Shown here: in pieces, positions 2,357 to 37,003 of the stretch | How positions within the stretch are numbered: position 1 is the stretch's first letter | Layout of the letters: each line of letters opens with the position of its first letter | Assembly: GCA_964511345.1 (NCBI GenBank) | Contig: CAZEEV010000004.1 | Coordinates: forward strand, 19,802-83,801 | From: an uncultured Pseudomonadales bacterium | GTDB lineage: Bacteria > Patescibacteriota > Microgenomatia > UBA1400 > PJMF01 | Reading direction: 5' to 3' | Length of the DNA stretch: 64,000 nt | The notes under the pieces: generated by a model | Told to the model about the DNA's origin: nothing | What the model saw: only the letters and a program-made list of their open reading frames with translations | Databases searched by the model: none | Made by a program: the position numbers and the translations under genes

Positions 2357-2836
2357 ATGGATTCACCTCAACAAACTATTTGGTACAGTTATTTAGACTC
2401 CCAGCAAAAAGACTTAGTTGATGTTAGTTTCGCCTTATTGCAGAAAAAAAATTTATTAACTGATTTAAAAGATTTTTCTTTTTTAGTTTTCCCTATGTCT
2501 AAAGCCTATGAAGGTTTTCTAAAAAAAGTTTTTTACGATTTACAATTAATTAGTAAAGACACTTATCAAGGTCGTCGCTTTCGTATTGGACGTGCTTTTA
2601 ATCCAGATATTCGTGAATATCAGAGAGATGAAGATTGGCTTTATGATGATGTAGAGCGTAAATTTGGTAAAGACGTTGCTAGACAATTATGGGAAACTTG
2701 GCTGCAATGTCGCAATCGAGTTTTCCACTTTTTTATTGCTGAGAGACAAACCCTGAGCTTTGATGAAGCGGTGGTAAAGATTAGAATGATTACCAACTCT
2801 ATACAATTAGTAGCAGAACAACTACAGAAAAACTAA
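2357..2836 (+). CDS. Hypothetical protein, possible HEPN-like fold
   Basis: 159-aa ORF of predicted all-alpha character. It has an R-x4-H signature (RNRVFH) near the C-terminus, as in HEPN RNase domains. No other recognisable family. Confidence 0.45.
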   Translation: MDSPQQTIWYSYLDSQQKDLVDVSFALLQKKNLLTDLKDFSFLVFPMSKAYEGFLKKVFYDLQLISKDTYQGRRFRIGRAFNPDIREYQRDEDWLYDDVERKFGKDVARQLWETWLQCRNRVFHFFIAERQTLSFDEAVVKIRMITNSIQLVAEQLQKN

Positions 2837-11730: not shown

Positions 11731-13545
11731 TTATAGCTCTACCTCATAGACCACTGAGCCACTCAGAGCATAGATTTTTTGATTATCTGTGTTAAAAGCA
11801 ATGCTACTTACACCAGCCAACTCGTTACTTTTAATTTCATTGATGAGTTGGCCATCTTTAGTAATAACAACTAGTCTTTTGTTTTGTTTTTCTAGGATTG
11901 CCAGAGAATTGTTATTTTCACCAGTGCTTAGAGAAACGGTGCTAGTAAGTAAATTACTAAGGCCAGCGATTTGGAAATCAGTCGCGTAACCTTTACTAAA
12001 TTTCAATAGTCTGCCAGATTTATCTCCCAACCATAAATCGCCATCAACTACCAAATCACTAATGTTTTCAAAATTAATACCTTGCTTGTCTACTAACCAA
12101 CCGATTGGTTCACTAAGTTGATCAGCATTGTAATAGTACCGATAAATATTTCTTTTTTCCTTATTAACCAGATATAAATATGGTCCAAAGCTACTGAAAT
12201 GCTCAGCATTTTTATCTGATTCTCCTGCCACTTTAATTTCTTTAAATTCTTTTTCGTTTTTTTGCAAATCCAGCATTTGTATACCGTTGCTCAAGATAAA
12301 TAATTTGCCGTCGCTAACGGTAAAATCTCTAATTTGCTGATTACTATTTAAACTTAATTTTTCTTGACTACGATCCGCATTAATCTTCAAAATTTCCTGA
12401 CCACTATTTTCTAAAATAAAAATTTGCTGATTTGCAACTACAATTTTATTGCCCAAAAAGTTTTCCAAATTAAAAGCGATAGATAAACGATCTAAAGAAT
12501 TTTCTCCAGATATTTGGTTGATAGTGGTTTGCAATTTTTGGATTTCTTGATCAATTAATTGCAGACTATCTCGATTGTTTTTTTCTTTTTTCAAAGCTTC
12601 TAATGCCTGTAAACTTTTTTGCGCTTTTTCTCTGGCAGTTAAAGGCTGTTTCAAAACTAGCTGGTCAATATTTTCTATTTCAGAATTGATTGCAATAATT
12701 TGGTTTTGAATGTTGTGAATGATTTGTTGTTTTTGTCTGTTCAATAGAGTGAATGTGCCAAAAACTCCTCCAAGCAATACTAGAAAAATTATTAAACTAA
12801 TTAATAGCTTTTTCTTATTTTGGTTTTTTAGCCATATATAGATTTTTTTTAAAAATAAATGAATTTTTTTGCCAAAAAAATAAATTTTTGCAATTACTTT
12901 TTTAAGATAAGACAAGACCTGAGTGATCAATGGCACGAGTTTGTTGATTTCAAATTTTGTTTTTGCAGGGTTTTGACTGATTTTTTCTTGATAATTAAGA
13001 ATAGCTAAACTAGTGCCGAGATTTTTTATTTCTTCTTGCATCAAACTCAATTCACTAACAATTTTTTCCAAACTATTTTCTTTGGCATTCAAACTTGCTG
13101 AAGCAAGAATTTTCTCGGCTAAAACTGCACCAGCTTGATTGACTAAAATAATCTGATCACCTGTGCGAAATGGACCAAGAATGATTTTTACCTCAGCTCT
13201 ACTAGAGAGGATTGGCCTGACTTGTCCATTTCTTTGCAAGATTACTTGTCCAGAATAAGTGACAAAAACAATTTGTTCTTGGTGAAGCCAGCTAGCAGCA
13301 AGCTCTATTTCCAAGTCTTTTTGACGAGTAAAGACCAATAAATCTAAAATTTTTTGGTGGAGTTGTTCTGGATTATTGATTTGCCAGCTGGTAAATTCGC
13401 TGGCTAAATCTTTACAAAAACTGGTAGCATTTTGACCTTTGAGAGAATAAGCGACGACCAATTGTTTGTTTTGACTTGCAATCACTTCGGAGCAGAAATC
13501 TAAACGAGGATGAGCTAAGATTGATACAAATTGAGCCTCTTTCAC
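11731..13545 (-). CDS. Large hypothetical membrane protein (604 aa): cytoplasmic N-domain, single TM, extracytoplasmic coiled-coil and beta-rich C-terminal region
   Basis: Long ORF with an internal hydrophobic helix (LISLIIFLVLLGGVFGTFTLL), a heptad-rich region, and a C-terminal region with repeated beta-strand-like segments. Confidence 0.5.
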   Translation of the reverse strand: MKEAQFVSILAHPRLDFCSEVIASQNKQLVVAYSLKGQNATSFCKDLASEFTSWQINNPEQLHQKILDLLVFTRQKDLEIELAASWLHQEQIVFVTYSGQVILQRNGQVRPILSSRAEVKIILGPFRTGDQIILVNQAGAVLAEKILASASLNAKENSLEKIVSELSLMQEEIKNLGTSLAILNYQEKISQNPAKTKFEINKLVPLITQVLSYLKKVIAKIYFFGKKIHLFLKKIYIWLKNQNKKKLLISLIIFLVLLGGVFGTFTLLNRQKQQIIHNIQNQIIAINSEIENIDQLVLKQPLTAREKAQKSLQALEALKKEKNNRDSLQLIDQEIQKLQTTINQISGENSLDRLSIAFNLENFLGNKIVVANQQIFILENSGQEILKINADRSQEKLSLNSNQQIRDFTVSDGKLFILSNGIQMLDLQKNEKEFKEIKVAGESDKNAEHFSSFGPYLYLVNKEKRNIYRYYYNADQLSEPIGWLVDKQGINFENISDLVVDGDLWLGDKSGRLLKFSKGYATDFQIAGLSNLLTSTVSLSTGENNNSLAILEKQNKRLVVITKDGQLINEIKSNELAGVSSIAFNTDNQKIYALSGSVVYEVEL

Positions 13546-13555
13546 TGAGTTTATC

Positions 13556-14689
13556 TTAACACAGAATAGCTAAGTTAGGTTGACGATCAAGTTGATCTAG
13601 ATTAGCAAATTCACTCTTAGAATATTTAAAATTAGCTACCAGGCCAATCATGGCCGCATTATCACCACAGAGCTTTTTACTGTAAGGTACTTTGAGTATA
13701 ATTTTTTTACCACTCAATTGTTGGTATTTGGTCAAGGTTTTTCTGACAATTTTACGTAAACTAATGTTGGCGGCTACGCCGCCACCAAGCCAAATCTCAT
13801 TAATTTTTGTAGGAATAGCCTGGCCTTTTTTAAGATGTTTCATAAAATTTCGGCTAGGATAAAGCATTTGCTCTAGATTCTGGCTAAATAAAATTCTTTC
13901 TAATTTGTAGGCAATTTGTTCAAAAACTGTTGTTTGTAGAGCTAAGGCTAAATCATAAATAGTTTGTTGATCTAATTTATTTTGTTTCTCTAAATCGGCA
14001 ATTAAATTACGGGCAGCAGTTTTCAGACCAGAGAAACTTAAATCAAAATTAGCTTGTGAAGTCATGGCTTTGGGAAAGGTAAATTTGCCGGGATGACCTT
14101 TCTTGGCGAATTTTTCTAAAAGTGGCCCAGCTGGATAACCTAAATTTAGTAAGCGTCCTACTTTATCTAGGCATTCTCCAGCGGCATCATCGATAGTTTG
14201 GCCGATTTTTTGATAATGACCAATTTTATCTATTAAAATAAATTCGCTGTGTCCGCCAGAAATAACCAGCGCTAAACTAGGCAGTTGAGATGCTAGGATA
14301 TTATTGCTTTTTTTGCCATTATTAACAGCTAATGCAGACAAGGCATGAGCTTCGATGTGATTAATGGCAATGACTTTTTTATGATGCTCTAGAGCCAATT
14401 CTTTAGTTCTCTCAACACCCACTTCCAAAGCTGGTGCTAAACCTGGCCCAACTGTGACGGCAATGGCTTCGATTTCTGCCCAATTCACCCTGGCTTGTTT
14501 CATGGCTAAATGGATAGTTGGATCAAGGTTTTTTTGATGTTCACTTTTAGCCACAGTGGGGAAAACGCCACCATATTGTTTATGAATTTGGTTTTGCGAA
14601 GCCACAATATTGCTTAACACCACTGAGCCATCCACAACGGCGGCGCTGCTATCATCACAACTGGTATCAATAGCTAGAATTTTTGGCAT
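13556..14689 (-). CDS. tsaD: tRNA N6-adenosine threonylcarbamoyltransferase TsaD (Kae1/Gcp family)
   Basis: ILAIDTSCDDSSAAVV ... GGVF ASKH-fold motifs. The likely start is MPKILAID at 14689, shorter than the ORF-track start at 14734. Confidence 0.85.
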   Translation of the reverse strand: MPKILAIDTSCDDSSAAVVDGSVVLSNIVASQNQIHKQYGGVFPTVAKSEHQKNLDPTIHLAMKQARVNWAEIEAIAVTVGPGLAPALEVGVERTKELALEHHKKVIAINHIEAHALSALAVNNGKKSNNILASQLPSLALVISGGHSEFILIDKIGHYQKIGQTIDDAAGECLDKVGRLLNLGYPAGPLLEKFAKKGHPGKFTFPKAMTSQANFDLSFSGLKTAARNLIADLEKQNKLDQQTIYDLALALQTTVFEQIAYKLERILFSQNLEQMLYPSRNFMKHLKKGQAIPTKINEIWLGGGVAANISLRKIVRKTLTKYQQLSGKKIILKVPYSKKLCGDNAAMIGLVANFKYSKSEFANLDQLDRQPNLAILC

Positions 14690-14690
14690 T

Positions 14691-15755
14691 TTATTTTTTA
14701 CTAATAATAATTTTTCTTCGCTGATTTTCTTCACTAAAATCTAAAGTTAATAAAGGGATTTCTTTGTCTAATTTAAGCCACTTAGCAATTTGCTCAAACC
14801 ACTCAATGACTACAAGGTTATTTTTTTGAATTAGTTTTTCAATGGCTAAAAAGTTTATTTCTTCTTGGCTATCAATTTTCCAGGCATCGATATGATAAAA
14901 AGTGCCCTTAGTGCTCGAACGTTTATATGAATATTCATTCATATATGAATAGGTAGGAGAACTAATGGTTTCTTTAATGCCTAAGAACCTAGCGACGCCT
15001 TTGGCAAAAATGGTTTTGCCCATACCAAGTGGCCCATTAAGAGCAATCACTAAACCGTTTTTTTGTAAGTCATTTAAGTGATTAAGCAATAAGCGCCCAG
15101 CCAATTCAATGGTTTCATTTTCATCATTGCTCCACAAAACCTCACCTTTTTTATTTTGGAGTGAGCCACGCAGAGCAATCGGTGTGGAAAGAGTGGTATC
15201 GACAACAATTGATGGTTCATTTTTAGGTAGTTCACCAGCGTCAATGATTAGATCAACTAAGTCCTTTTGTTTTGCTGATAAGCCAGTAAAAATATCCTGA
15301 ATAGTGTAAGGTCGTTTTTTACCAGAGGCATTTGCCGAAGTGCTGGTGATGGCTTGACCAAGATTTTTGATAAGATCAGTAATTAAAGGATAAGCTGGAA
15401 TACGAATCCCCAAGGTGCCAAATTCAGAATTAACTCTAGGATCAGTTTGATTTTTGCTTTTAGAAATGACTGTAAATGGACCAGGCAAGAAATTGTTGTA
15501 AAATTTCAGAGCTTGTTCATTAATGTCGACATATTTTTCTGCCATTTCTTGATCAGTGACAGCAATCGATAGAGGCTTGCCTTCGCGGCGACCTTTATAC
15601 TGCAAGAGTTTATCAATGGCTCCAGCATGATTAGCCATTGCCCCAATGCCATAGACAGTTTCAGTGGGGTAAATTACCAAACCGCCATTTTTCAAACAGC
15701 TGGTTGCTTCACTAATAACTTGCTCTCGATTAGAATTGAGCTTTAATATTTTCAT
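14691..15755 (-). CDS. Fusion protein: threonylcarbamoyl-AMP synthase (TsaC/YrdC domain) N-terminal, TsaE (YjeE P-loop ATPase) C-terminal
   Basis: N-terminal half has YrdC motifs (VIYPTETVYGIGAMA, KGRREGKPLSI). C-terminal half has the TsaE signature (ALNGPLGMGKT...GIKETISSPTYSYMNEYSY). The likely start is MKILKL at 15755; the ORF track extends to 15800. Confidence 0.7.
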   Translation of the reverse strand: MKILKLNSNREQVISEATSCLKNGGLVIYPTETVYGIGAMANHAGAIDKLLQYKGRREGKPLSIAVTDQEMAEKYVDINEQALKFYNNFLPGPFTVISKSKNQTDPRVNSEFGTLGIRIPAYPLITDLIKNLGQAITSTSANASGKKRPYTIQDIFTGLSAKQKDLVDLIIDAGELPKNEPSIVVDTTLSTPIALRGSLQNKKGEVLWSNDENETIELAGRLLLNHLNDLQKNGLVIALNGPLGMGKTIFAKGVARFLGIKETISSPTYSYMNEYSYKRSSTKGTFYHIDAWKIDSQEEINFLAIEKLIQKNNLVVIEWFEQIAKWLKLDKEIPLLTLDFSEENQRRKIIISKK

Positions 15756-15786
15756 ATTTTTCTGTAAGATATAGGCCCATATTATA

Positions 15787-16155
15787 ATGCCAAAAGACAA
15801 TAATCGTTACCAACTTTTAAATAATCTTGATTTGCTCACTCCGATTGCTGTGGATGATGGGGCCAATCTTAAATTTAGTCTTTATTTAAGGTCTAGAGAA
15901 ATGAGGGAAATTGTTTTAAATTTGGAAAAAGTAATGTTGAAGAAGAAAACTGAGCGTGACTTATTTGTGGCAGAAAACAAAACTTTTATTGATGCACTGA
16001 TGAAAACTTTCGTCGATGATTCCAACTTAACCTTGGAAGGCATGCAGATGGATCAAGAGACAGCGCAAATGTCTATGCAATTAGCTATGGATTTGCGTAA
16101 ATCCATTTCTTTGGTTAATGCGCTGTTTTACGGAGTTGAAGGCCTAAAGAGTTGA
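15787..16155 (+). CDS. Hypothetical protein (122 aa)
   Basis: ORF divergent from the tsaC-tsaE gene. No recognisable domain. Confidence 0.35.
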   Translation: MPKDNNRYQLLNNLDLLTPIAVDDGANLKFSLYLRSREMREIVLNLEKVMLKKKTERDLFVAENKTFIDALMKTFVDDSNLTLEGMQMDQETAQMSMQLAMDLRKSISLVNALFYGVEGLKS

Positions 16156-16159
16156 GTAT

Positions 16160-16186
16160 TTAGCAATCAATACTGCTTATTGCTAA
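16160..16186 (+). promoter_or_regulatory. CIRCE-like HrcA operator (TTAGCA-N15-TGCTAA) upstream of groES-groEL
   Basis: The sequence ttagcaatcaatactgcttattgctaa matches the outer arms and spacing of the CIRCE consensus TTAGCACTC-N9-GAGTGCTAA. It lies about 70 nt upstream of groES. Confidence 0.6.
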
Positions 16187-16256: not shown

Positions 16257-16682
16257 ATGCAAACTCTCAATATTAAGAAAATCCAACCAACTAAAGGTTA
16301 TGTTTTAGTTGAACCAGCCAAAGCTGAAGAGAAAACTGTCTCTGGCATTATTTTACCTGAGAATGAAAGTGAAAAACCCCAATATGGAGTAGTTTTAGCA
16401 GTTGGCGAGGCTTGTGATTGTGGAGATAGTTGCAGTTGCGAGGATGGTTGCGATTGCGGCTGCGGTTGCGAAGAGAAAAAAGAAACCGACGTTGCAAGAA
16501 CATATAAGAAACAAGTTAAAGAGAATTGGTCCTCTTGTAATTGCGACTCTTGTACCTGTGAAGCTCCAGTCAAAGTTGGTGACAAAGTCATTTATAAAAA
16601 ATGGGGTGGTAATGAATTCAAGATTGATGATATTGAGTATCAATTTTTAAAATTTGAAGATATTTTGGCAATTATTAAATAA
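16257..16682 (+). CDS. groES: Co-chaperonin GroES carrying a ~45-aa cysteine-rich (metallothionein-like) insertion in the roof-hairpin region
   Basis: N-terminus (KIQPTKGYVLVEP...SGIILPE...GVVLAVGEA) and C-terminus (VKVGDKVIYKK...EYQFLKFEDILAIIK) are canonical GroES. Between them lies CDCGDSCSCEDGCDCGCGCEEKKETDVARTYKKQVKENWSSCNCDSCTCEAP, with 14 Cys. Total 141 aa against the usual ~95. Confidence 0.8.
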   Translation: MQTLNIKKIQPTKGYVLVEPAKAEEKTVSGIILPENESEKPQYGVVLAVGEACDCGDSCSCEDGCDCGCGCEEKKETDVARTYKKQVKENWSSCNCDSCTCEAPVKVGDKVIYKKWGGNEFKIDDIEYQFLKFEDILAIIK

Positions 16683-19090: not shown

Positions 19091-19118
19091 AGATCTGGTA
19101 TTTGCCAGATTTTTTTTA
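19091..19118 (+). terminator. Rho-independent terminator after the plus-strand tRNA
   Basis: agatctgg-tatttg-ccagat followed by tttttttt. Confidence 0.5.
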
Positions 19119-19140
19119 TTGTAATGCTAGAATTAAAAGC

Positions 19141-20202
19141 ATGTTTAAACAAAAGGAAATCTTGCTTCTTATTTCGATTGTTTTAGTTGGTTTCTGTTTT
19201 AGGTTATTTTTGGTTTTAGATTTACCTATTTGGATAGATGAAACTTTTACCTTAAATCACATTAAGTTGTCTCTTCTAGACTTAGTAAGTGGCAAATTTG
19301 ATGCAACACATCCATTTGGTTATTATCTTTTTTTGAAACTTTGGTCCCTGATCTCTAGCAATTTGCTTTGGTTAAGATGCAGCACTTTGATCTTTTATCT
19401 TCTGAATTCCTTTTTATTTTATAAACTTGCAGTTTTAACTAAGCAAAAAAACTTAACCTATCTTTTATTAATTTTATACGCTTTCTCTGGATACTTCATA
19501 GTTTTTGATTGGCAAGCTCGTATGTACACTGGCGTGCTGACTTTAATATTAGTTTCTTGGTACAGTTTCAAAGCACGGAAAAATTTGTTGTTTTCAATAA
19601 TTAATATTTATGGTTTGTATTTTGACTATGCATTTGTGTGGTATTTGATTCCTTTAACTTTATTGATTCTCTACCAAACCTTTAAGAAAATTAAAAATAG
19701 CAAGCTCACCTTAATTTATATTGTTTCTACTTGGTTAGTTTTTGCTCTTTGGATACCAACATTTTTAACAACTTATAAAAATGGTATAGAAGCAATTAAT
19801 TGGACTGCGCGCTTTACGACTCCAACTTTTTTCCTGCCTTATTTTTTGGGTTCACACAATAATATTTTTATTACGATTTTTATTATGTTTTTTAGTTTGT
19901 ATGGAATATTTATTACTTTTCTCAAAGATAAAACTTCTGCTCAGTTTTTTATTAGTGCGAGACTCAGCTCTGGATTTTTAGCTTTTGTTCTTTCTTTTTT
20001 TGTGGGGTCAATTTTCCATGTCAGAAATTTACAAATTGTGGCTTTAATGTTTTTGATTACAATAGCGATTTGTTTAGATTGGCTGTGGAAATGCAAACAT
20101 CGATATTTAGTTTTAATTTTTCTATTAATATATTTTATTAGCTTTTTATTAACGATACGATTACACTATATTTTGCCAAGTTCATTGCTTTTAAAATTTT
20201 AA
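19141..20202 (+). CDS. Polytopic membrane protein, GT-C fold glycosyltransferase-like (ArnT/PMT-like)
   Basis: About 10 TM helices. A conserved acidic DE pair in the first extracytoplasmic loop (PIWIDETFT) is typical of GT-C glycosyltransferases. The ORF-track start at 19102 lies inside the upstream terminator; the ATG at 19141 is preferred. Confidence 0.4.
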   Translation: MFKQKEILLLISIVLVGFCFRLFLVLDLPIWIDETFTLNHIKLSLLDLVSGKFDATHPFGYYLFLKLWSLISSNLLWLRCSTLIFYLLNSFLFYKLAVLTKQKNLTYLLLILYAFSGYFIVFDWQARMYTGVLTLILVSWYSFKARKNLLFSIINIYGLYFDYAFVWYLIPLTLLILYQTFKKIKNSKLTLIYIVSTWLVFALWIPTFLTTYKNGIEAINWTARFTTPTFFLPYFLGSHNNIFITIFIMFFSLYGIFITFLKDKTSAQFFISARLSSGFLAFVLSFFVGSIFHVRNLQIVALMFLITIAICLDWLWKCKHRYLVLIFLLIYFISFLLTIRLHYILPSSLLLKF

Positions 20203-20304
20203 AAATAGTATTGAATTGAATTTAGCAAAATATTAGTTTTTTTTAAAATAGCAACATTTTCAATTTAGGATTATAATGAAATAAATTCATATCGAAAGGA
20301 GAAT

Positions 20305-20523
20305 ATGAGTGAATTGTTTCCAGATAGTCCAAGTAGTCAACAAAACTCCCCACTTATTAATCCTGATCTGAAGACACCTAACAGTTTGGCTCATCTAACC
20401 AACGCCTTAAGAAAAACAATGGAGCTTGCTAACAGTAGTGTCGCAGAAAAGTCTCAAGAAGGCGCAGTAGATGACAGCACAAATAACGATTCTGCAAGCA
20501 CTGATATATCTGAAAATAAATAG
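20305..20523 (+). CDS. Small acidic, serine/asparagine-rich hypothetical protein (72 aa)
   Basis: ORF preceded by a GGAG RBS (aaggagaatATG). Low-complexity, likely disordered. Confidence 0.3.
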   Translation: MSELFPDSPSSQQNSPLINPDLKTPNSLAHLTNALRKTMELANSSVAEKSQEGAVDDSTNNDSASTDISENK

Positions 20524-20573
20524 TTTTTGACAAATTGACTTAAACCGTTATTTTAAAACGAAAGTCTTAATAA

Positions 20574-20909
20574 TTGGGTATCGGTAAGGAGAAAAATGTT
20601 ATGACAGAAATGCCACCAAAATTGCAAGAAACAGAAGTTTTTACTAAAGAAGTAGTTATTACTCTGTCGACTCCGCCCAGTAAGATCAAAGCTTTATTAC
20701 CAGCTCTGTATCGTATTTTTGGTACTATTCCCATTTCCAATTCAGAAGATACGAAAATTACTTATTATTTAACTGGCAATGCGGTCAAGATTGATGACGA
20801 TTTAATTAGACAATATATTACGGCTACTATTGGTGCGCATGTGATTGATGTGAAAATTGGTGAGAAAAAAGCCGAACCAAGACCTAATTTATTTAGTGTC
20901 TATAAATAG
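20574..20909 (+). CDS. Hypothetical protein (about 100 aa)
   Basis: ORF with an aaggag RBS. No recognisable domain. The start may be the internal ATG at 20601. Confidence 0.35.
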   Translation: MGIGKEKNVMTEMPPKLQETEVFTKEVVITLSTPPSKIKALLPALYRIFGTIPISNSEDTKITYYLTGNAVKIDDDLIRQYITATIGAHVIDVKIGEKKAEPRPNLFSVYK

Positions 20910-21293
20910 ATTTTTCCACTCGTTAATTGGTTGATTTTGCTTGATTGTGGTATTTTTGTCGAGCTGGCTATTGAAGCTTTCTTCATCTGGAATTTGCAAA
21001 ATAATATCATTTTCTTTTTTTAGTAAGAGTTCATTACGCTTGATTTTTTCCAAACTAACTTCAGCTTGATTTTCATTCATTTTTTTTTGTTCTTTCAGCA
21101 ATTCTTTTTCAGTCTCTGCAACACTTTTCTCTAGTTTTTCAATACTTTCTTTAGAAATTAGAGCTTGTTTGCTGCTTTTTTGGAGAGAGAAGATGCTAAT
21201 CAGGCTCACAATAGTCACAATTACCACAAAAAATGGGTGACTCAATATTTTTTGCAATTGTTTTTTATCCATTTTGATACTTTTATAAATCAA
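20889..21293 (-). CDS. Membrane-anchored coiled-coil protein, septum-formation-initiator (FtsB/DivIC)-like
   Basis: N-terminal TM helix (FFVVIVTIVSLISIFSL) followed by a lysine/glutamate-rich heptad region. Confidence 0.4.
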   Translation of the reverse strand: MIYKSIKMDKKQLQKILSHPFFVVIVTIVSLISIFSLQKSSKQALISKESIEKLEKSVAETEKELLKEQKKMNENQAEVSLEKIKRNELLLKKENDIILQIPDEESFNSQLDKNTTIKQNQPINEWKNLFIDTK

Positions 21294-21385
21294 TGGCGCT
21301 TGTTTATAAACCTAGTTTATGATATTATAAGACCTTATTATTCGAGAAAAACAAACTTATTCTGTCCTAATAGGTTAGATCAATT

Positions 21386-22252
21386 ATGCACACAAATTTA
21401 CTTGACGCGCAAGCAAAGTTTACTGAGAGCTTAAGAGCTAATGGCAAAGCTCATGCGACTGTAATTGCTTATGGAAAAGATATCGAGCAATTGGCAGATT
21501 TTTTAAGTAAAAGATCAAAGAATTTATTATCTGAAGTAGTGGCAGAAGATTTAGAAGATTTTAAAGAATTGCTTAAAAAGCAAAGATACACCAGTAAATC
21601 TATTTCCAGAAAAATTAATTCAATTAAAGCTTTCTTTCGCTTTTGCATTAGTGAAGGTTTGGTCGAAGGCAATCCTACCGAGGATATTAGTCAGCCTAAA
21701 TTTGACCAAACTCCTCCTAGAATTTTATCTCGTTTAGAATATCGTGCCTTGCGTGATTCCTGTCGTGCTGATGCTCGTATGCATGCGATCGTAGAAATTT
21801 TATTGCAGACTGGTATGCGTATCAGCGAATTGGCTTACTTACAAATGACTGATATCGATTTGGAAAGAGAGTTAATTTACATTCAGGCTCAAAATTCCAG
21901 AGAAGCCCGTCGCATTCCTCTCAATACTGCTGCTAAAAAAGCTATTTTGGATTATTTAAGACTTCGTCCACGAGCTAAAGAAAAAACTTTGTTTTTAACT
22001 AAAACATGCCGACCATTTTTAGTGCGTAATATTCGTACTGCTATCGATCGTTATTTCCGTTTAGCTGGTATTAAAGATGCCAAGGTTAATGATTTGCGCC
22101 ACACTTTTATCGTTGAGCAACTCAAAGCTGGTACTCCTTTGGTTTATGTTTCCCAATTAGTGGGGCATAAACGCATTACCACCACTGAAAAATATCTTCA
22201 TTTAATTGAGGCTCCAGAAATGCAGCCGAATATTAAAATTGAAGAGCTTTAA
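21386..22252 (+). CDS. Tyrosine site-specific recombinase, XerC/XerD family
   Basis: N-terminal SAM-like domain. Catalytic R...HxxR...Y residues are present (ARRIPL, LRHTF, GHKRITTTEKYLHL). Confidence 0.8.
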   Translation: MHTNLLDAQAKFTESLRANGKAHATVIAYGKDIEQLADFLSKRSKNLLSEVVAEDLEDFKELLKKQRYTSKSISRKINSIKAFFRFCISEGLVEGNPTEDISQPKFDQTPPRILSRLEYRALRDSCRADARMHAIVEILLQTGMRISELAYLQMTDIDLERELIYIQAQNSREARRIPLNTAAKKAILDYLRLRPRAKEKTLFLTKTCRPFLVRNIRTAIDRYFRLAGIKDAKVNDLRHTFIVEQLKAGTPLVYVSQLVGHKRITTTEKYLHLIEAPEMQPNIKIEEL

Positions 22253-36968: not shown

Positions 36969-37003
36969 TTGACAGTTTAGCAAACTCTAGCTATGATTGC
37001 TAA
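36969..37003 (+). promoter_or_regulatory. Sigma70-type promoter (TTGACA-17-TATGAT) overlapped by a CIRCE-like HrcA operator (TTAGCA-N15-TGCTAA at 36977..37003) upstream of hrcA
   Basis: ttgacagtttagcaaactctagctatgattgctaa. The inverted-repeat arms and 15-nt spacing match CIRCE. Confidence 0.6.

What the first reader, a model, noticed from the sequence alone, without database searches (positions are those of the whole stretch)
14691..15800. TsaC-TsaE fusion protein adjacent to TsaD (t6A37 biosynthesis)
A single 355-369 aa ORF joins an N-terminal YrdC/Sua5-type threonylcarbamoyl-AMP synthase domain to a C-terminal TsaE (YjeE) P-loop ATPase domain. It is immediately followed on the same strand by tsaD, with the stop and start 1-2 nt apart. 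In the established bacterial pathway, TsaC acts independently and TsaE cycles on TsaBD. Fusing TsaC to TsaE would channel TC-AMP directly to the transferase complex. No tsaB is visible in this window. If TsaB is absent from the genome, this fusion may compensate and would define a reduced t6A system.
Basis: partly seen in the sequence, partly recalled or inferred. Interest (0 to 1): 0.5.

Follow-up and report, generated by a model that had tools for sequence, protein, structure and literature searches.

The report
Fused TsaC–TsaE t6A enzyme in Patescibacteria
One gene here joins two normally separate enzymes of the universal tRNA modification t6A (the TC-AMP synthase TsaC and the ATPase TsaE) next to the transferase TsaD; this real, conserved but apparently undescribed fusion marks a large clade of ultra-small bacteria and supports the idea that TsaE and TsaC act on TsaD together.

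Summary
Window 14691-15755(-) encodes a 354-aa protein (369 aa from an upstream TTG). Its N-terminal half is a bona fide TsaC (TIGR00057 166 bits, KRSN tetrad intact). Its C-terminal half is a bona fide TsaE (TIGR00150 84 bits; Walker A, SPTY loop, HxD and EW motifs intact). tsaD starts 1 nt after the stop.

The fusion is not an assembly artefact. All 120 best database homologues, 131 of the 150 best 50%-identity cluster representatives, and at least 209 GTDB species genomes carry it. All are Patescibacteria (Pacebacteria/Woesebacteria/Microgenomates). Both halves are under strong purifying selection, and tsaD lies directly downstream in about 80 of 83 loci.

I found no mention of it in the t6A literature; databases name it only "threonylcarbamoyl-AMP synthase".

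Other Patescibacteria carry tsaE-tsaC-tsaB operons with a ~100-aa mini-TsaB, a reverse TsaE-TsaC fusion and TsaC-TsaB fusions. TsaC is therefore repeatedly tied to the TsaBDE machinery there.

No tsaB lies in the window or within 10 kb of 82 related fusion loci. Genome-wide absence could not be tested, and mini-TsaB is easy to miss, so the "reduced system without TsaB" idea stays open and unlikely (~0.2).

Verdict: a new variant of a known system, of moderate interest.

The parts
14691..15755 (-). tsaC-tsaE fusion gene: 354 aa plus stop TAA at 14693-14691. The ATG at 15755 is the likely start; the TTG at 15800 would add 15 aa not seen in homologues.
15165..15755 (-). TsaC (YrdC-type L-threonylcarbamoyladenylate synthase) domain, aa 1-197, with KRSN tetrad K54, R56, S140, N142.
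   Evidence: TIGR00057 166 bits. Residues are invariant in alignments A1/A2/A5. Foldseek to E. coli YrdC 1hru gives TM 0.81.
15123..15164 (-). Interdomain linker, aa 198-211; variable in sequence and length.
   Evidence: Mean column identity is 0.33 against 0.74 and 0.66 in the domains. pLDDT drops to about 59-80 here. Linker lengths are mostly 11-46 aa in 131 cluster representatives.
14694..15122 (-). TsaE (YjeE) P-loop ATPase domain, aa 212-354. Motifs: S266-P-T-Y loop, H288-x-D290-x-W-K, E318-W319.
   Evidence: TIGR00150 84.3 bits and PF02367 98 bits. Motif residues are invariant. Foldseek to HI0065/TsaE 1htw gives TM 0.79.
15012..15035 (-). Walker A motif G241-P-L-G-M-G-K-T248 of the TsaE domain.
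   Evidence: Read. G241, G244, G246, K247 and T248 are invariant in 76 homologues. The motif is present in 129 of 131 fusion cluster representatives.
13556..14689 (-). tsaD (tRNA N6-adenosine threonylcarbamoyltransferase), 377 aa. Its ATG lies 1 nt after the fusion gene's stop.
   Evidence: TIGR03723 316 bits. Best PDB matches are E. coli/Salmonella TsaD; the HxxxH and GDN metal-site motifs are present. It lies directly downstream of the fusion in about 80 of 83 loci.
15766..15793 (-). Sigma-70-like promoter match (TTGGCA-16-TATCTT) just upstream of the fusion ATG. This is a consensus match only.
   Evidence: the number of such sites in the region is not above the shuffled expectation
15787..16155 (+). 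Conserved 122-aa gene 'X' of unknown function, divergent from the fusion gene. It is a predicted three-helix bundle. Its membership of the t6A unit is uncertain.
   Evidence: It sits in the same position in 81 of 83 fusion loci. No family was found. AF2 gives pLDDT 73. A CIRCE-like operator lies between it and groES.

Best explanation
The gene encodes a bifunctional t6A37 biosynthesis protein. Its N-terminal TsaC domain makes L-threonylcarbamoyl-AMP (TC-AMP) from threonine, bicarbonate and ATP. Its C-terminal TsaE domain is the P-loop ATPase that docks, with ATP, at the active-site entrance of TsaD and cycles off on hydrolysis. The gene is co-transcribed and probably translationally coupled with tsaD.

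Shown here: both domains are intact family members with all catalytic and signature residues. Both are under purifying selection. The architecture and the tsaD linkage are conserved across a deep clade of Patescibacteria (Microgenomates group: Pacebacteria, Woesebacteria).

Inferred: TsaE binding and tRNA binding to TsaD are mutually exclusive, and TC-AMP is labile. A flexible 14-40-aa tether to TsaE would therefore place the TC-AMP source at the TsaD active-site entrance during the TsaE-bound 'reset/loading' state. TsaD would be loaded, and ATP hydrolysis would then release TsaCE and admit tRNA. This is proximity hand-off plus fixed 1:1 stoichiometry, not a sealed channel. A dimerisation partner for TsaD, most likely a ~100-aa mini-TsaB encoded elsewhere, is probably still needed.
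For: Domain identity. Signature residues are invariant across 20-76 homologues and align with E. coli TsaC.

Conservation of the fusion: all 120 best hits have both Pfam domains. At least 209 GTDB species genomes carry it. Of the 150 best 50%-identity cluster representatives, 131 are two-domain, 130 of these in C-to-E order, and 129 of 131 keep Walker A.

Selection: dN/dS is 0.06-0.13 in both halves.

tsaD lies directly downstream in about 80 of 83 loci, with a 1-nt spacer in the window.

AF2 gives pLDDT 91.7 and pTM 0.78, with a low-confidence linker.

Independent Rosetta-stone support in other Patescibacteria: a reverse TsaE-TsaC fusion (P0266), TsaC-TsaB fusions (L108, L123), and tight tsaE-tsaC-tsaB operons.

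The mechanism matches the hypothesis of Missoury et al. 2018 that TsaE prepares TsaD for TC-AMP transfer from TsaC. That paper also notes that a four-protein complex was seen by gel shift (PMC6009658).
Against: There is no biochemical evidence for this protein.

In TobZ, the TsaC-like module sits on the opposite side of the TsaD-like module from where TsaE binds. A TobZ-like channel is therefore unlikely with so short a tether.

The natural TsaD-TsaC fusion TsaN forms no channel (PMC10484737).

Both domain orders occur and the linker is unconserved. This argues for loose tethering, or merely co-expression.

In the saccharibacterium Southlakia the four genes are separate and all scored non-essential in Tn-seq (PMC10633639 supplement). 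The pathway's importance in this phylum may therefore be relaxed.

The TsaD partner (TsaB) was not located for this clade.
Confidence: 0.8

Rival explanations
1. Neutral or streamlining fusion. The two domains work exactly as in the canonical pathway, with TsaC free-standing in function and TsaE cycling on TsaBD. Fusion is only a by-product of gene compaction in tiny genomes, giving at most co-expression and no kinetic coupling.
For: Patescibacterial t6A genes overlap or abut, and several different pairwise fusions exist (E-C, C-B, C-E), as expected if stop codons between neighbours are easily lost. The linker is variable. TsaN shows that fusion need not create a channel.
Against: The C-to-E order is the reverse of the tsaE-tsaC-tsaB operon order in sister lineages, so it is not a simple read-through. 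On a neighbour-joining tree of TsaC domains, the E-C-B-type sequences form their own clade apart from all 122 C-E fusions, which fits one ancient fusion kept ever since. The fusion persists down to about 32% identity, with almost no splitting back among full-length representatives.
Confidence: 0.3
2. Reduced t6A system. The fusion clade has lost TsaB and runs on TsaCE plus TsaD alone, with a TsaD homodimer or some other protein (such as the conserved neighbour X) taking TsaB's place.
For: No TsaB-like ORF was found in the window or within 10 kb of the fusion in 82 related loci (1.41 Mb). In lineages that have mini-TsaB it is almost always glued to tsaE and/or tsaC. None of the long contigs carrying mini-TsaB hits matches the length of a near-complete fusion-bearing contig. 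Gene X is conserved next to the fusion in 81 of 83 loci.
Against: Whole genomes could not be searched. TsaE is reported to bind only the asymmetric TsaB-TsaD heterodimer, and TsaE without TsaB has not been reported. Orphan mini-tsaB genes with no adjacent tsaE or tsaC do exist in metagenomes (L126, L127), which is what fusion genomes retaining TsaB would look like. The TsaB-contacting alpha-3 helix of the TsaE domain is not noticeably less conserved in fusions than in standalone patescibacterial TsaE (relative information 0.73 against 0.81). X is a generic three-helix bundle with no similarity to TsaB.
Confidence: 0.2
3. Repurposed C-terminal domain. The TsaE-like half no longer acts on TsaD. 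Instead it regulates or supports the TsaC half, taking the place of the SUA5 domain of two-domain TsaC2/Sua5 enzymes.
For: It occupies the same C-terminal position as the SUA5 domain. The TsaC half is closer to TsaC2/Sua5 N-domains (T. maritima TsaC2 107 bits) than to E. coli TsaC (54 bits). A pTM of 0.78 hints at a defined interdomain packing.
Against: All TsaE-specific motifs are invariant, including the SPT(F/Y) loop that inserts into the TsaD active site. The linker lacks any conserved Sua5-like motif. No standalone tsaE was seen in any fusion locus, so this domain is the only candidate TsaE seen near these genes. tsaD is invariably adjacent.
Confidence: 0.07
4. Artefact. A sequencing or assembly error removed a stop codon or frameshift between two separate genes.
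For: None beyond the prior that MAG assemblies contain errors.
Against: The same uninterrupted architecture appears in thousands of independently assembled sequences from NCBI, JGI, ENA and Logan, including complete genomes. dN/dS is about 0.1 across both halves.
Confidence: 0.01

Closest known systems
Canonical bacterial t6A pathway: TsaC (or TsaC2) plus the TsaB-TsaD-TsaE complex (E. coli, T. maritima)
   Same: The enzyme families, catalytic motifs and inferred chemistry are the same. TsaD is of the bacterial type, closest to E. coli/Salmonella TsaD.
   Different: TsaC and TsaE are one polypeptide here. In the model organisms they are separate, usually unlinked genes, and no stable TsaC-TsaBDE interaction has been isolated. 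TsaB was not found near the genes.
Sua5/TsaC2 (TsaC domain plus C-terminal SUA5 domain)
   Same: It is a two-domain protein of about 340-350 aa with the TsaC domain N-terminal. The TsaC half is most similar to this subgroup.
   Different: The C-terminal domain is a P-loop TsaE, not a SUA5 domain: there is no PF03481 hit, and whole-chain superposition gives rmsd 13-14 A. There is no conserved Sua5-type linker.
TobZ, HypF and pandoravirus TsaN (YrdC-like plus Kae1/TsaD-like domains in one chain)
   Same: These are natural fusions that tie the adenylate-forming step to the transfer machinery.
   Different: In those proteins the synthase is fused to the transferase itself. Here it is fused to the transferase's regulatory ATPase, and TsaD remains a separate gene.
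Archaeal Kae1-Bud32 fusion (PRPK, MJ1130)
   Same: The regulatory ATPase of the t6A transferase is fused to another pathway component, and the fusion is common within one lineage.
   Different: Bud32 is fused to the transferase Kae1, not to Sua5. Bud32 and TsaE are unrelated folds.
Other reported bacterial t6A gene fusions: YeaZ-RimI-YgjD, Alr-YjeE, hydrolase-YeaZ (Oberto 2013), and TsaC/HemK in M. genitalium (Thiaville 2015)
   Same: These show that t6A genes take part in lineage-specific fusions.
   Different: None joins TsaC to TsaE or TsaC to TsaB. The 2013 survey stated that clusters containing yrdC together with the YgjD-complex genes are rare.
Patescibacterial tsaE-tsaC-mini-tsaB operons and the TsaE-TsaC / TsaC-TsaB fusions found here
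   Same: They come from the same phylum and use the same short TsaC and TsaE types, with TsaC physically tied to TsaBDE components.
   Different: Gene or domain order is E then C (then B), mini-TsaB is adjacent, and tsaD is not within 6-10 kb. In the window type the order is C-E, tsaD is adjacent and no tsaB is nearby.

Membership tests
TsaC / YrdC-Sua5 family (COG0009, TIGR00057, PF01300) | Profile score above the curated cutoff | tested here: met
   TIGR00057 166.1 bits against cutoff 123.2; PF01300 154 bits against 25.1.
TsaC / YrdC-Sua5 family (COG0009, TIGR00057, PF01300) | KRSN tetrad, which separates TsaC from the paralogue YciO | tested here: met
   K54, R56, S140 and N142 are present and invariant or nearly so in homologues. 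They align with the K-x-R and S-A-N motifs of E. coli TsaC. The criterion comes from Thiaville 2015.
TsaC / YrdC-Sua5 family (COG0009, TIGR00057, PF01300) | YrdC fold | tested here: met
   The AF2 model against 1hru gives TM 0.81 and rmsd 2.7 A.
TsaC / YrdC-Sua5 family (COG0009, TIGR00057, PF01300) | TC-AMP synthase activity | not testable with these tools
   This needs an enzyme assay.
TsaC2 / Sua5 two-domain subfamily | C-terminal SUA5 domain (PF03481) | tested here: not met
   There is no SUA5 hit; the C-terminal half is TsaE. Whole-chain Foldseek to Sua5/TsaC2 gives rmsd 13-14 A.
TsaE / YjeE (TIGR00150, PF02367) | Profile score above the curated cutoff | tested here: met
   TIGR00150 84.3 bits against 60.1; PF02367 98 bits against 26.6.
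TsaE / YjeE (TIGR00150, PF02367) | Walker A GxxGxGK[TS], the SPT(F/Y)T loop, H-x-D-x-aromatic-basic, and EW | tested here: met
   The protein has G241PLGMGKT248, S266-P-T-Y-S (last T replaced by S), H288-I-D-A-W-K and E318-W319. The key residues are invariant in 76 homologues. The motif's role is described.
TsaE / YjeE (TIGR00150, PF02367) | TsaE fold | tested here: met
   Foldseek gives 1htw TM 0.79 and rmsd 2.4 A; T. maritima TsaE in TsaBDE (6s84, 6n9a) gives TM 0.66-0.70.
TsaE / YjeE (TIGR00150, PF02367) | ATP-dependent binding to the TsaB-TsaD heterodimer and ATPase-driven multi-turnover | not testable with these tools
TsaD (TIGR03723) - the downstream gene | Equivalog score above the cutoff and the metal-site motifs | tested here: met
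   The score is 316 bits against 296.1. H-I-E-A-H and G-D-N-A-A-M align with E. coli/Salmonella TsaD.
Complete bacterial TsaBCDE system | Presence of TsaB (TIGR03725 / PF00814 short form) | tested here: inconclusive
   TsaB is absent from the 64-kb window and from 82 related 20-kb loci. The rest of the genome could not be read. Mini-TsaB exists elsewhere in the phylum.
TobZ/HypF/TsaN-type synthase-transferase fusions | YrdC-like and Kae1/TsaD-like domains in one polypeptide | tested here: not met
   A TAA stop separates the fusion gene from tsaD. The same separation holds in the related loci.

The most novel reading that the evidence does not exclude
The whole C-to-E fusion clade of Patescibacteria has dispensed with TsaB and makes t6A with two genes, tsaCE and tsaD. 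TsaD either homodimerises like mitochondrial Qri7 or uses the universally adjacent three-helix protein X as a Pcc1-like stand-in for TsaB. This would be the first bacterial system that keeps TsaE without TsaB.
Probability: 0.2. Interest if true: 0.75.

Novelty: new variant of a known kind. Interest (0 to 1): 0.5.

Why it matters
How labile TC-AMP gets from TsaC to TsaD, and what TsaE's ATPase cycle is really for, are the main open questions in bacterial t6A synthesis. A natural TsaC-TsaE fusion bears on both. It is ancient and conserved, and it is backed here by an independent reverse-order fusion and by TsaC-TsaB fusions. Together these are comparative-genomic evidence that TsaC works in physical association with the TsaE-bound state of TsaD, as proposed but never shown (PMC6009658).

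The fusion also offers a ready-made, stoichiometric construct for structural and kinetic tests.

There is a practical consequence too. Databases name these proteins only "threonylcarbamoyl-AMP synthase", and mini-TsaB is about 100 aa. Automated reconstructions will therefore wrongly score TsaE, and often TsaB, as missing in Patescibacteria.

Tried and rejected
1. Artefact or frameshift was rejected on the conservation of the architecture.

2. I looked for TsaB in three places.
- In the window, Pfam and NCBIfam scans of essentially all ORFs found none.
- In 82 fusion loci, an HMM of 80 patescibacterial TsaDs, E. coli TsaB, a mini-TsaB seed and a mini-TsaB HMM hit only TsaD.
- Among variant longer fusion proteins, there was no extra TsaB domain.

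3. I tried to prove or disprove TsaB in fusion-bearing genomes.
That search retrieved only 124 candidates.
The question is unresolved.

4. I tested whether the conserved neighbour X is a TsaB relative. It has no family hit, hhalign probability 1.7% against E. coli TsaB, and a generic three-helix bundle with no meaningful fold match. It was rejected as a homologue and is not excluded as an analogue.

5. I compared conservation of the TsaB-contacting alpha-3 helix of TsaE in fusions and in standalone proteins. There was no clear difference.

6. The neighbourhoods of standalone TsaC representatives P0243 and P0235 were on contigs too short to be informative.

7. The afdb50 fold library was unavailable.

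8. Literature searches for any description of the fusion, or of t6A genes in Patescibacteria/CPR, found nothing relevant.
Full report
**What is there.** The minus-strand ORF 14691..15800 is open for 369 codons from a TTG. The first ATG, at 15755, gives 354 aa, and every homologue starts at that position.

Residues 1-197 match the YrdC/Sua5 family: PF01300 E 3e-45, and TIGR00057 166 bits against a cutoff of 123. Residues 212-354 match TsaE: PF02367 E 5e-28, and TIGR00150 84 bits against a cutoff of 60.

The TsaC half carries the KRSN tetrad (K54, R56, S140, N142). This tetrad separates true TsaC from the paralogue YciO (criterion: PMC4615747). The residues align with E. coli TsaC.

The TsaE half has the Walker A loop GPLGMGKT (aa 241-248). 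It also has the SPTY loop, which in the T. maritima TsaBDE structure dips into the TsaD active site (PMC6009658), and the H-x-D-x-W-K and EW motifs. All are invariant in alignments of 20 and 76 homologues.

An AlphaFold2 model is confident (pLDDT 91.7, pTM 0.78) except in the linker. Its halves superpose on E. coli YrdC (TM 0.81) and on H. influenzae TsaE (TM 0.79). No solved structure covers both halves.

The stop TAA (14693-14691) is followed after one base by the ATG of a bacterial-type tsaD (TIGR03723 316 bits). Its closest solved relatives are E. coli and Salmonella TsaD.

**It is real and old.**
- All 120 best hits among 5.8 billion proteins, down to 53% identity, carry both Pfam domains and are 350-394 aa long. 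Named ones are from Patescibacteria, Pacebacteria or Woesebacteria.
- A full HMMER scan of 1.84 billion 50%-identity cluster representatives gave 199 hits at E<=1e-30. Of the best 150, 131 have both domains, 130 of these in the order TsaC then TsaE. Identity falls as low as about 32%, and Walker A is present in 129 of 131.
- At least 209 GTDB species genomes encode it. The 80 loci fetched are Pacebacteria, Woesebacteria, Microgenomatus and unclassified Patescibacteria. Many TPA records are mis-titled 'uncultured Pseudomonadales'.
- dN/dS against four relatives is 0.06-0.13 in both halves. The 14-aa linker is the least conserved segment.
- tsaD follows directly on the same strand in about 80 of 83 loci.

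An assembly artefact is excluded.

**Is it known?** I found no mention of a TsaC-TsaE fusion in any of the following:
- the comparative review of t6A genes (PMC4615747);
- the 2022 review (PMC9654439);
- the TsaN paper, which searched specifically for TsaC-containing fusions with TsaD (PMC10484737);
- the SyntTax survey of t6A gene fusions (PMC3571937), which lists YeaZ-RimI-YgjD, Alr-YjeE and hydrolase-YeaZ and says clusters including yrdC are rare.

No paper links t6A genes with Patescibacteria/CPR. Source databases call the protein simply 'L-threonylcarbamoyladenylate synthase'. The architecture is visible in precomputed Pfam annotation but appears undescribed.

**Wider picture in the phylum.** One cluster representative, P0266, is the reverse fusion TsaE-TsaC (TIGR00150 103 bits plus TIGR00057 180 bits). 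In its locus the next gene, overlapping by 4 nt, encodes a 103-aa protein that passes the TsaB equivalog model (TIGR03725 76.5 bits, cutoff 69.3; motif GPGSFTGLRVG).

This mini-TsaB consists essentially of the N-terminal part of TsaB, with the two interface helices. It seeded a family of 109 proteins of about 100 aa, including one from Ca. Woesebacteria GW2011_GWA1_39_8.

Their neighbourhoods show several arrangements:
- tight tsaE-tsaB pairs;
- tsaE-tsaC-tsaB triplets in at least 13 loci, for example L103:1625-2932;
- two TsaC-TsaB fusion ORFs (L108:3932-4834 and L123).

The supplement of Wang et al. 2023 shows the same theme in the saccharibacterium Southlakia. There tsaD-tsaC are adjacent, tsaE and a 130-aa tsaB are adjacent, and all four scored non-essential (PMC10633639).

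On a neighbour-joining tree of TsaC domains, the E-C-B-type sequences form one clade apart from all 122 C-E fusions (no bootstrap). This fits a single ancient origin of the window-type fusion. In Patescibacteria, then, TsaC has been fused independently to TsaE, in both orders, and to TsaB.

**Mechanism.** The following steps are established for the families involved. TsaC makes TC-AMP. TsaD transfers the threonylcarbamoyl group to A37. TsaE with ATP binds the TsaB-TsaD heterodimer at the active-site entrance and excludes tRNA, and its ATPase is needed for multiple turnovers.

Missoury et al. proposed that the TsaE-bound state is the one that receives TC-AMP from TsaC, and that hydrolysis then releases TsaE and admits tRNA. 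The fusions reported here are the comparative-genomic signature expected under that model. I therefore propose that the tether keeps the TC-AMP source at the TsaD entrance during the TsaE-bound loading/reset state and fixes a 1:1 stoichiometry.

This part is inference. The variable linker, the existence of both domain orders, and the position of the TsaC-like module in TobZ (opposite to TsaE) all argue for loose proximity rather than a sealed channel. A purely neutral, streamlining origin cannot be excluded. I give it about 0.3.

**The TsaB question.** No TsaB-like ORF exists in the window, by Pfam/NCBIfam scans of the ORFs. None exists in 1.41 Mb of window plus 82 fusion loci either. That search used a TsaD HMM, E. 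coli TsaB, the mini-TsaB seed and a mini-TsaB HMM on all ORFs of at least 30 aa. The positive controls gave E 1.3e-10 and 9e-9.

This absence is notable, because where mini-TsaB is known it sits against tsaE or tsaC. Several points argue against concluding that TsaB is lost:
- I could not read whole genomes.
- TsaE is reported to bind only the asymmetric TsaB-TsaD pair.
- TsaE without TsaB has not been described.
- The TsaB-contacting helix of the TsaE domain is not relaxed in fusions.
- Two metagenomic contigs carry orphan mini-tsaB genes with no tsaE or tsaC beside them (L126, L127). Fusion genomes that kept TsaB at its old locus would look like this.

I put TsaB loss at about 0.2.

**Context noticed.** A 122-aa gene (X, 15787-16155) is divergent from the fusion gene in 81 of 83 loci. 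It has no family and is predicted to be a three-helix bundle. A CIRCE-like operator lies between it and groES-groEL, so it is probably not part of the heat-shock unit.

The linkage of t6A genes with groESL recalls the tsaE-tsaB-rimI-tsaD-groES arrangement of actinobacteria (PMC5335608, listed).

**Verdict.** This is a genuine, conserved and apparently undescribed domain fusion of two known t6A enzymes, so a new variant of a known system. Interest is moderate (0.5). The enzymes are ordinary, but the architecture, together with the related fusions and the mini-TsaB found here, gives direct and testable support to an unresolved mechanistic model. It also corrects how t6A genes should be annotated in Patescibacteria.

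Noticed in passing
window 15787-16155 (+): A 122-aa gene of unknown function ('X') is divergent from the fusion gene, with only 31 nt between the two ATGs. It holds the same position in 81 of 83 related loci. It has no Pfam or NCBIfam family. AF2 predicts a three-helix bundle with a disordered N-terminus. It is not homologous to TsaB.
   Followed up: partly
window 16257-16682 (+): GroES is 141 aa because a Cys-rich insert (12 Cys: CDCGDSCSCEDGCDCGCGCE...CNCDSCTCE) splits the Cpn10 domain. Of 77 GroES genes in related loci, 17 have 8-16 Cys; the rest are about 100 aa with 2 Cys. The insert may be metal-binding.
   Followed up: partly
window 16160-16186 and 36977-37003: CIRCE-like inverted repeats (TTAGCAATC-N9-ATTGCTAA type; 3 mismatches to consensus; 0.02 expected by chance) lie just upstream of groES and of hrcA. 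This implies HrcA control of both, and it places gene X outside the groESL heat-shock unit.
   Followed up: partly
L084:10001-11322; L103:1625-2932; L108:3508-4834; L172, L173, L176: Other Patescibacteria carry tsaE-tsaC-tsaB operons with a ~100-aa mini-TsaB (passes TIGR03725), a reverse TsaE-TsaC fusion (P0266) and TsaC-TsaB fusions. tsaD is not within 6-10 kb in these loci.
   Followed up: yes
L126:2845-3168 and L127:6001-6330: Orphan mini-tsaB genes have no adjacent tsaE or tsaC. Each is followed by a CAP-domain membrane protein and rmlA/rmlB. They are candidates for the 'left-behind' TsaB of fusion-type genomes, but I could not link them to that clade.
   Followed up: partly
L003-L082 record titles; L007: Many MAG records of this clade are titled 'uncultured Pseudomonadales'. 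Single loci are titled Micrarchaeota, Limisphaerales or TM6. CP011212.1 is titled TM6 in the collection, while its protein is named Ca. Pacebacteria bacterium GW2011_GWF2_38_9. These look like mislabelled or misbinned records.
   Followed up: no
window 11731-13545 (-): A 604-aa protein with a central transmembrane segment and a repeat-rich C-terminal half lies directly downstream of tsaD. It has no Pfam family and holds the same position in about 40 related loci.
   Followed up: no
window 19102-22252: A tyrosine recombinase (21386-22252) sits next to several unannotated ORFs (19102-21293). One has a faint type II restriction-enzyme hit. This may be a small mobile or defence island.
   Followed up: no
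window 2357-2836 (+): A 159-aa ORF has sub-threshold hits to the RnlA/RNase LS toxin domains (HEPN_RnaseLS and RnlA-toxin_DBD, about 25 bits, below the cutoffs).
   Followed up: no
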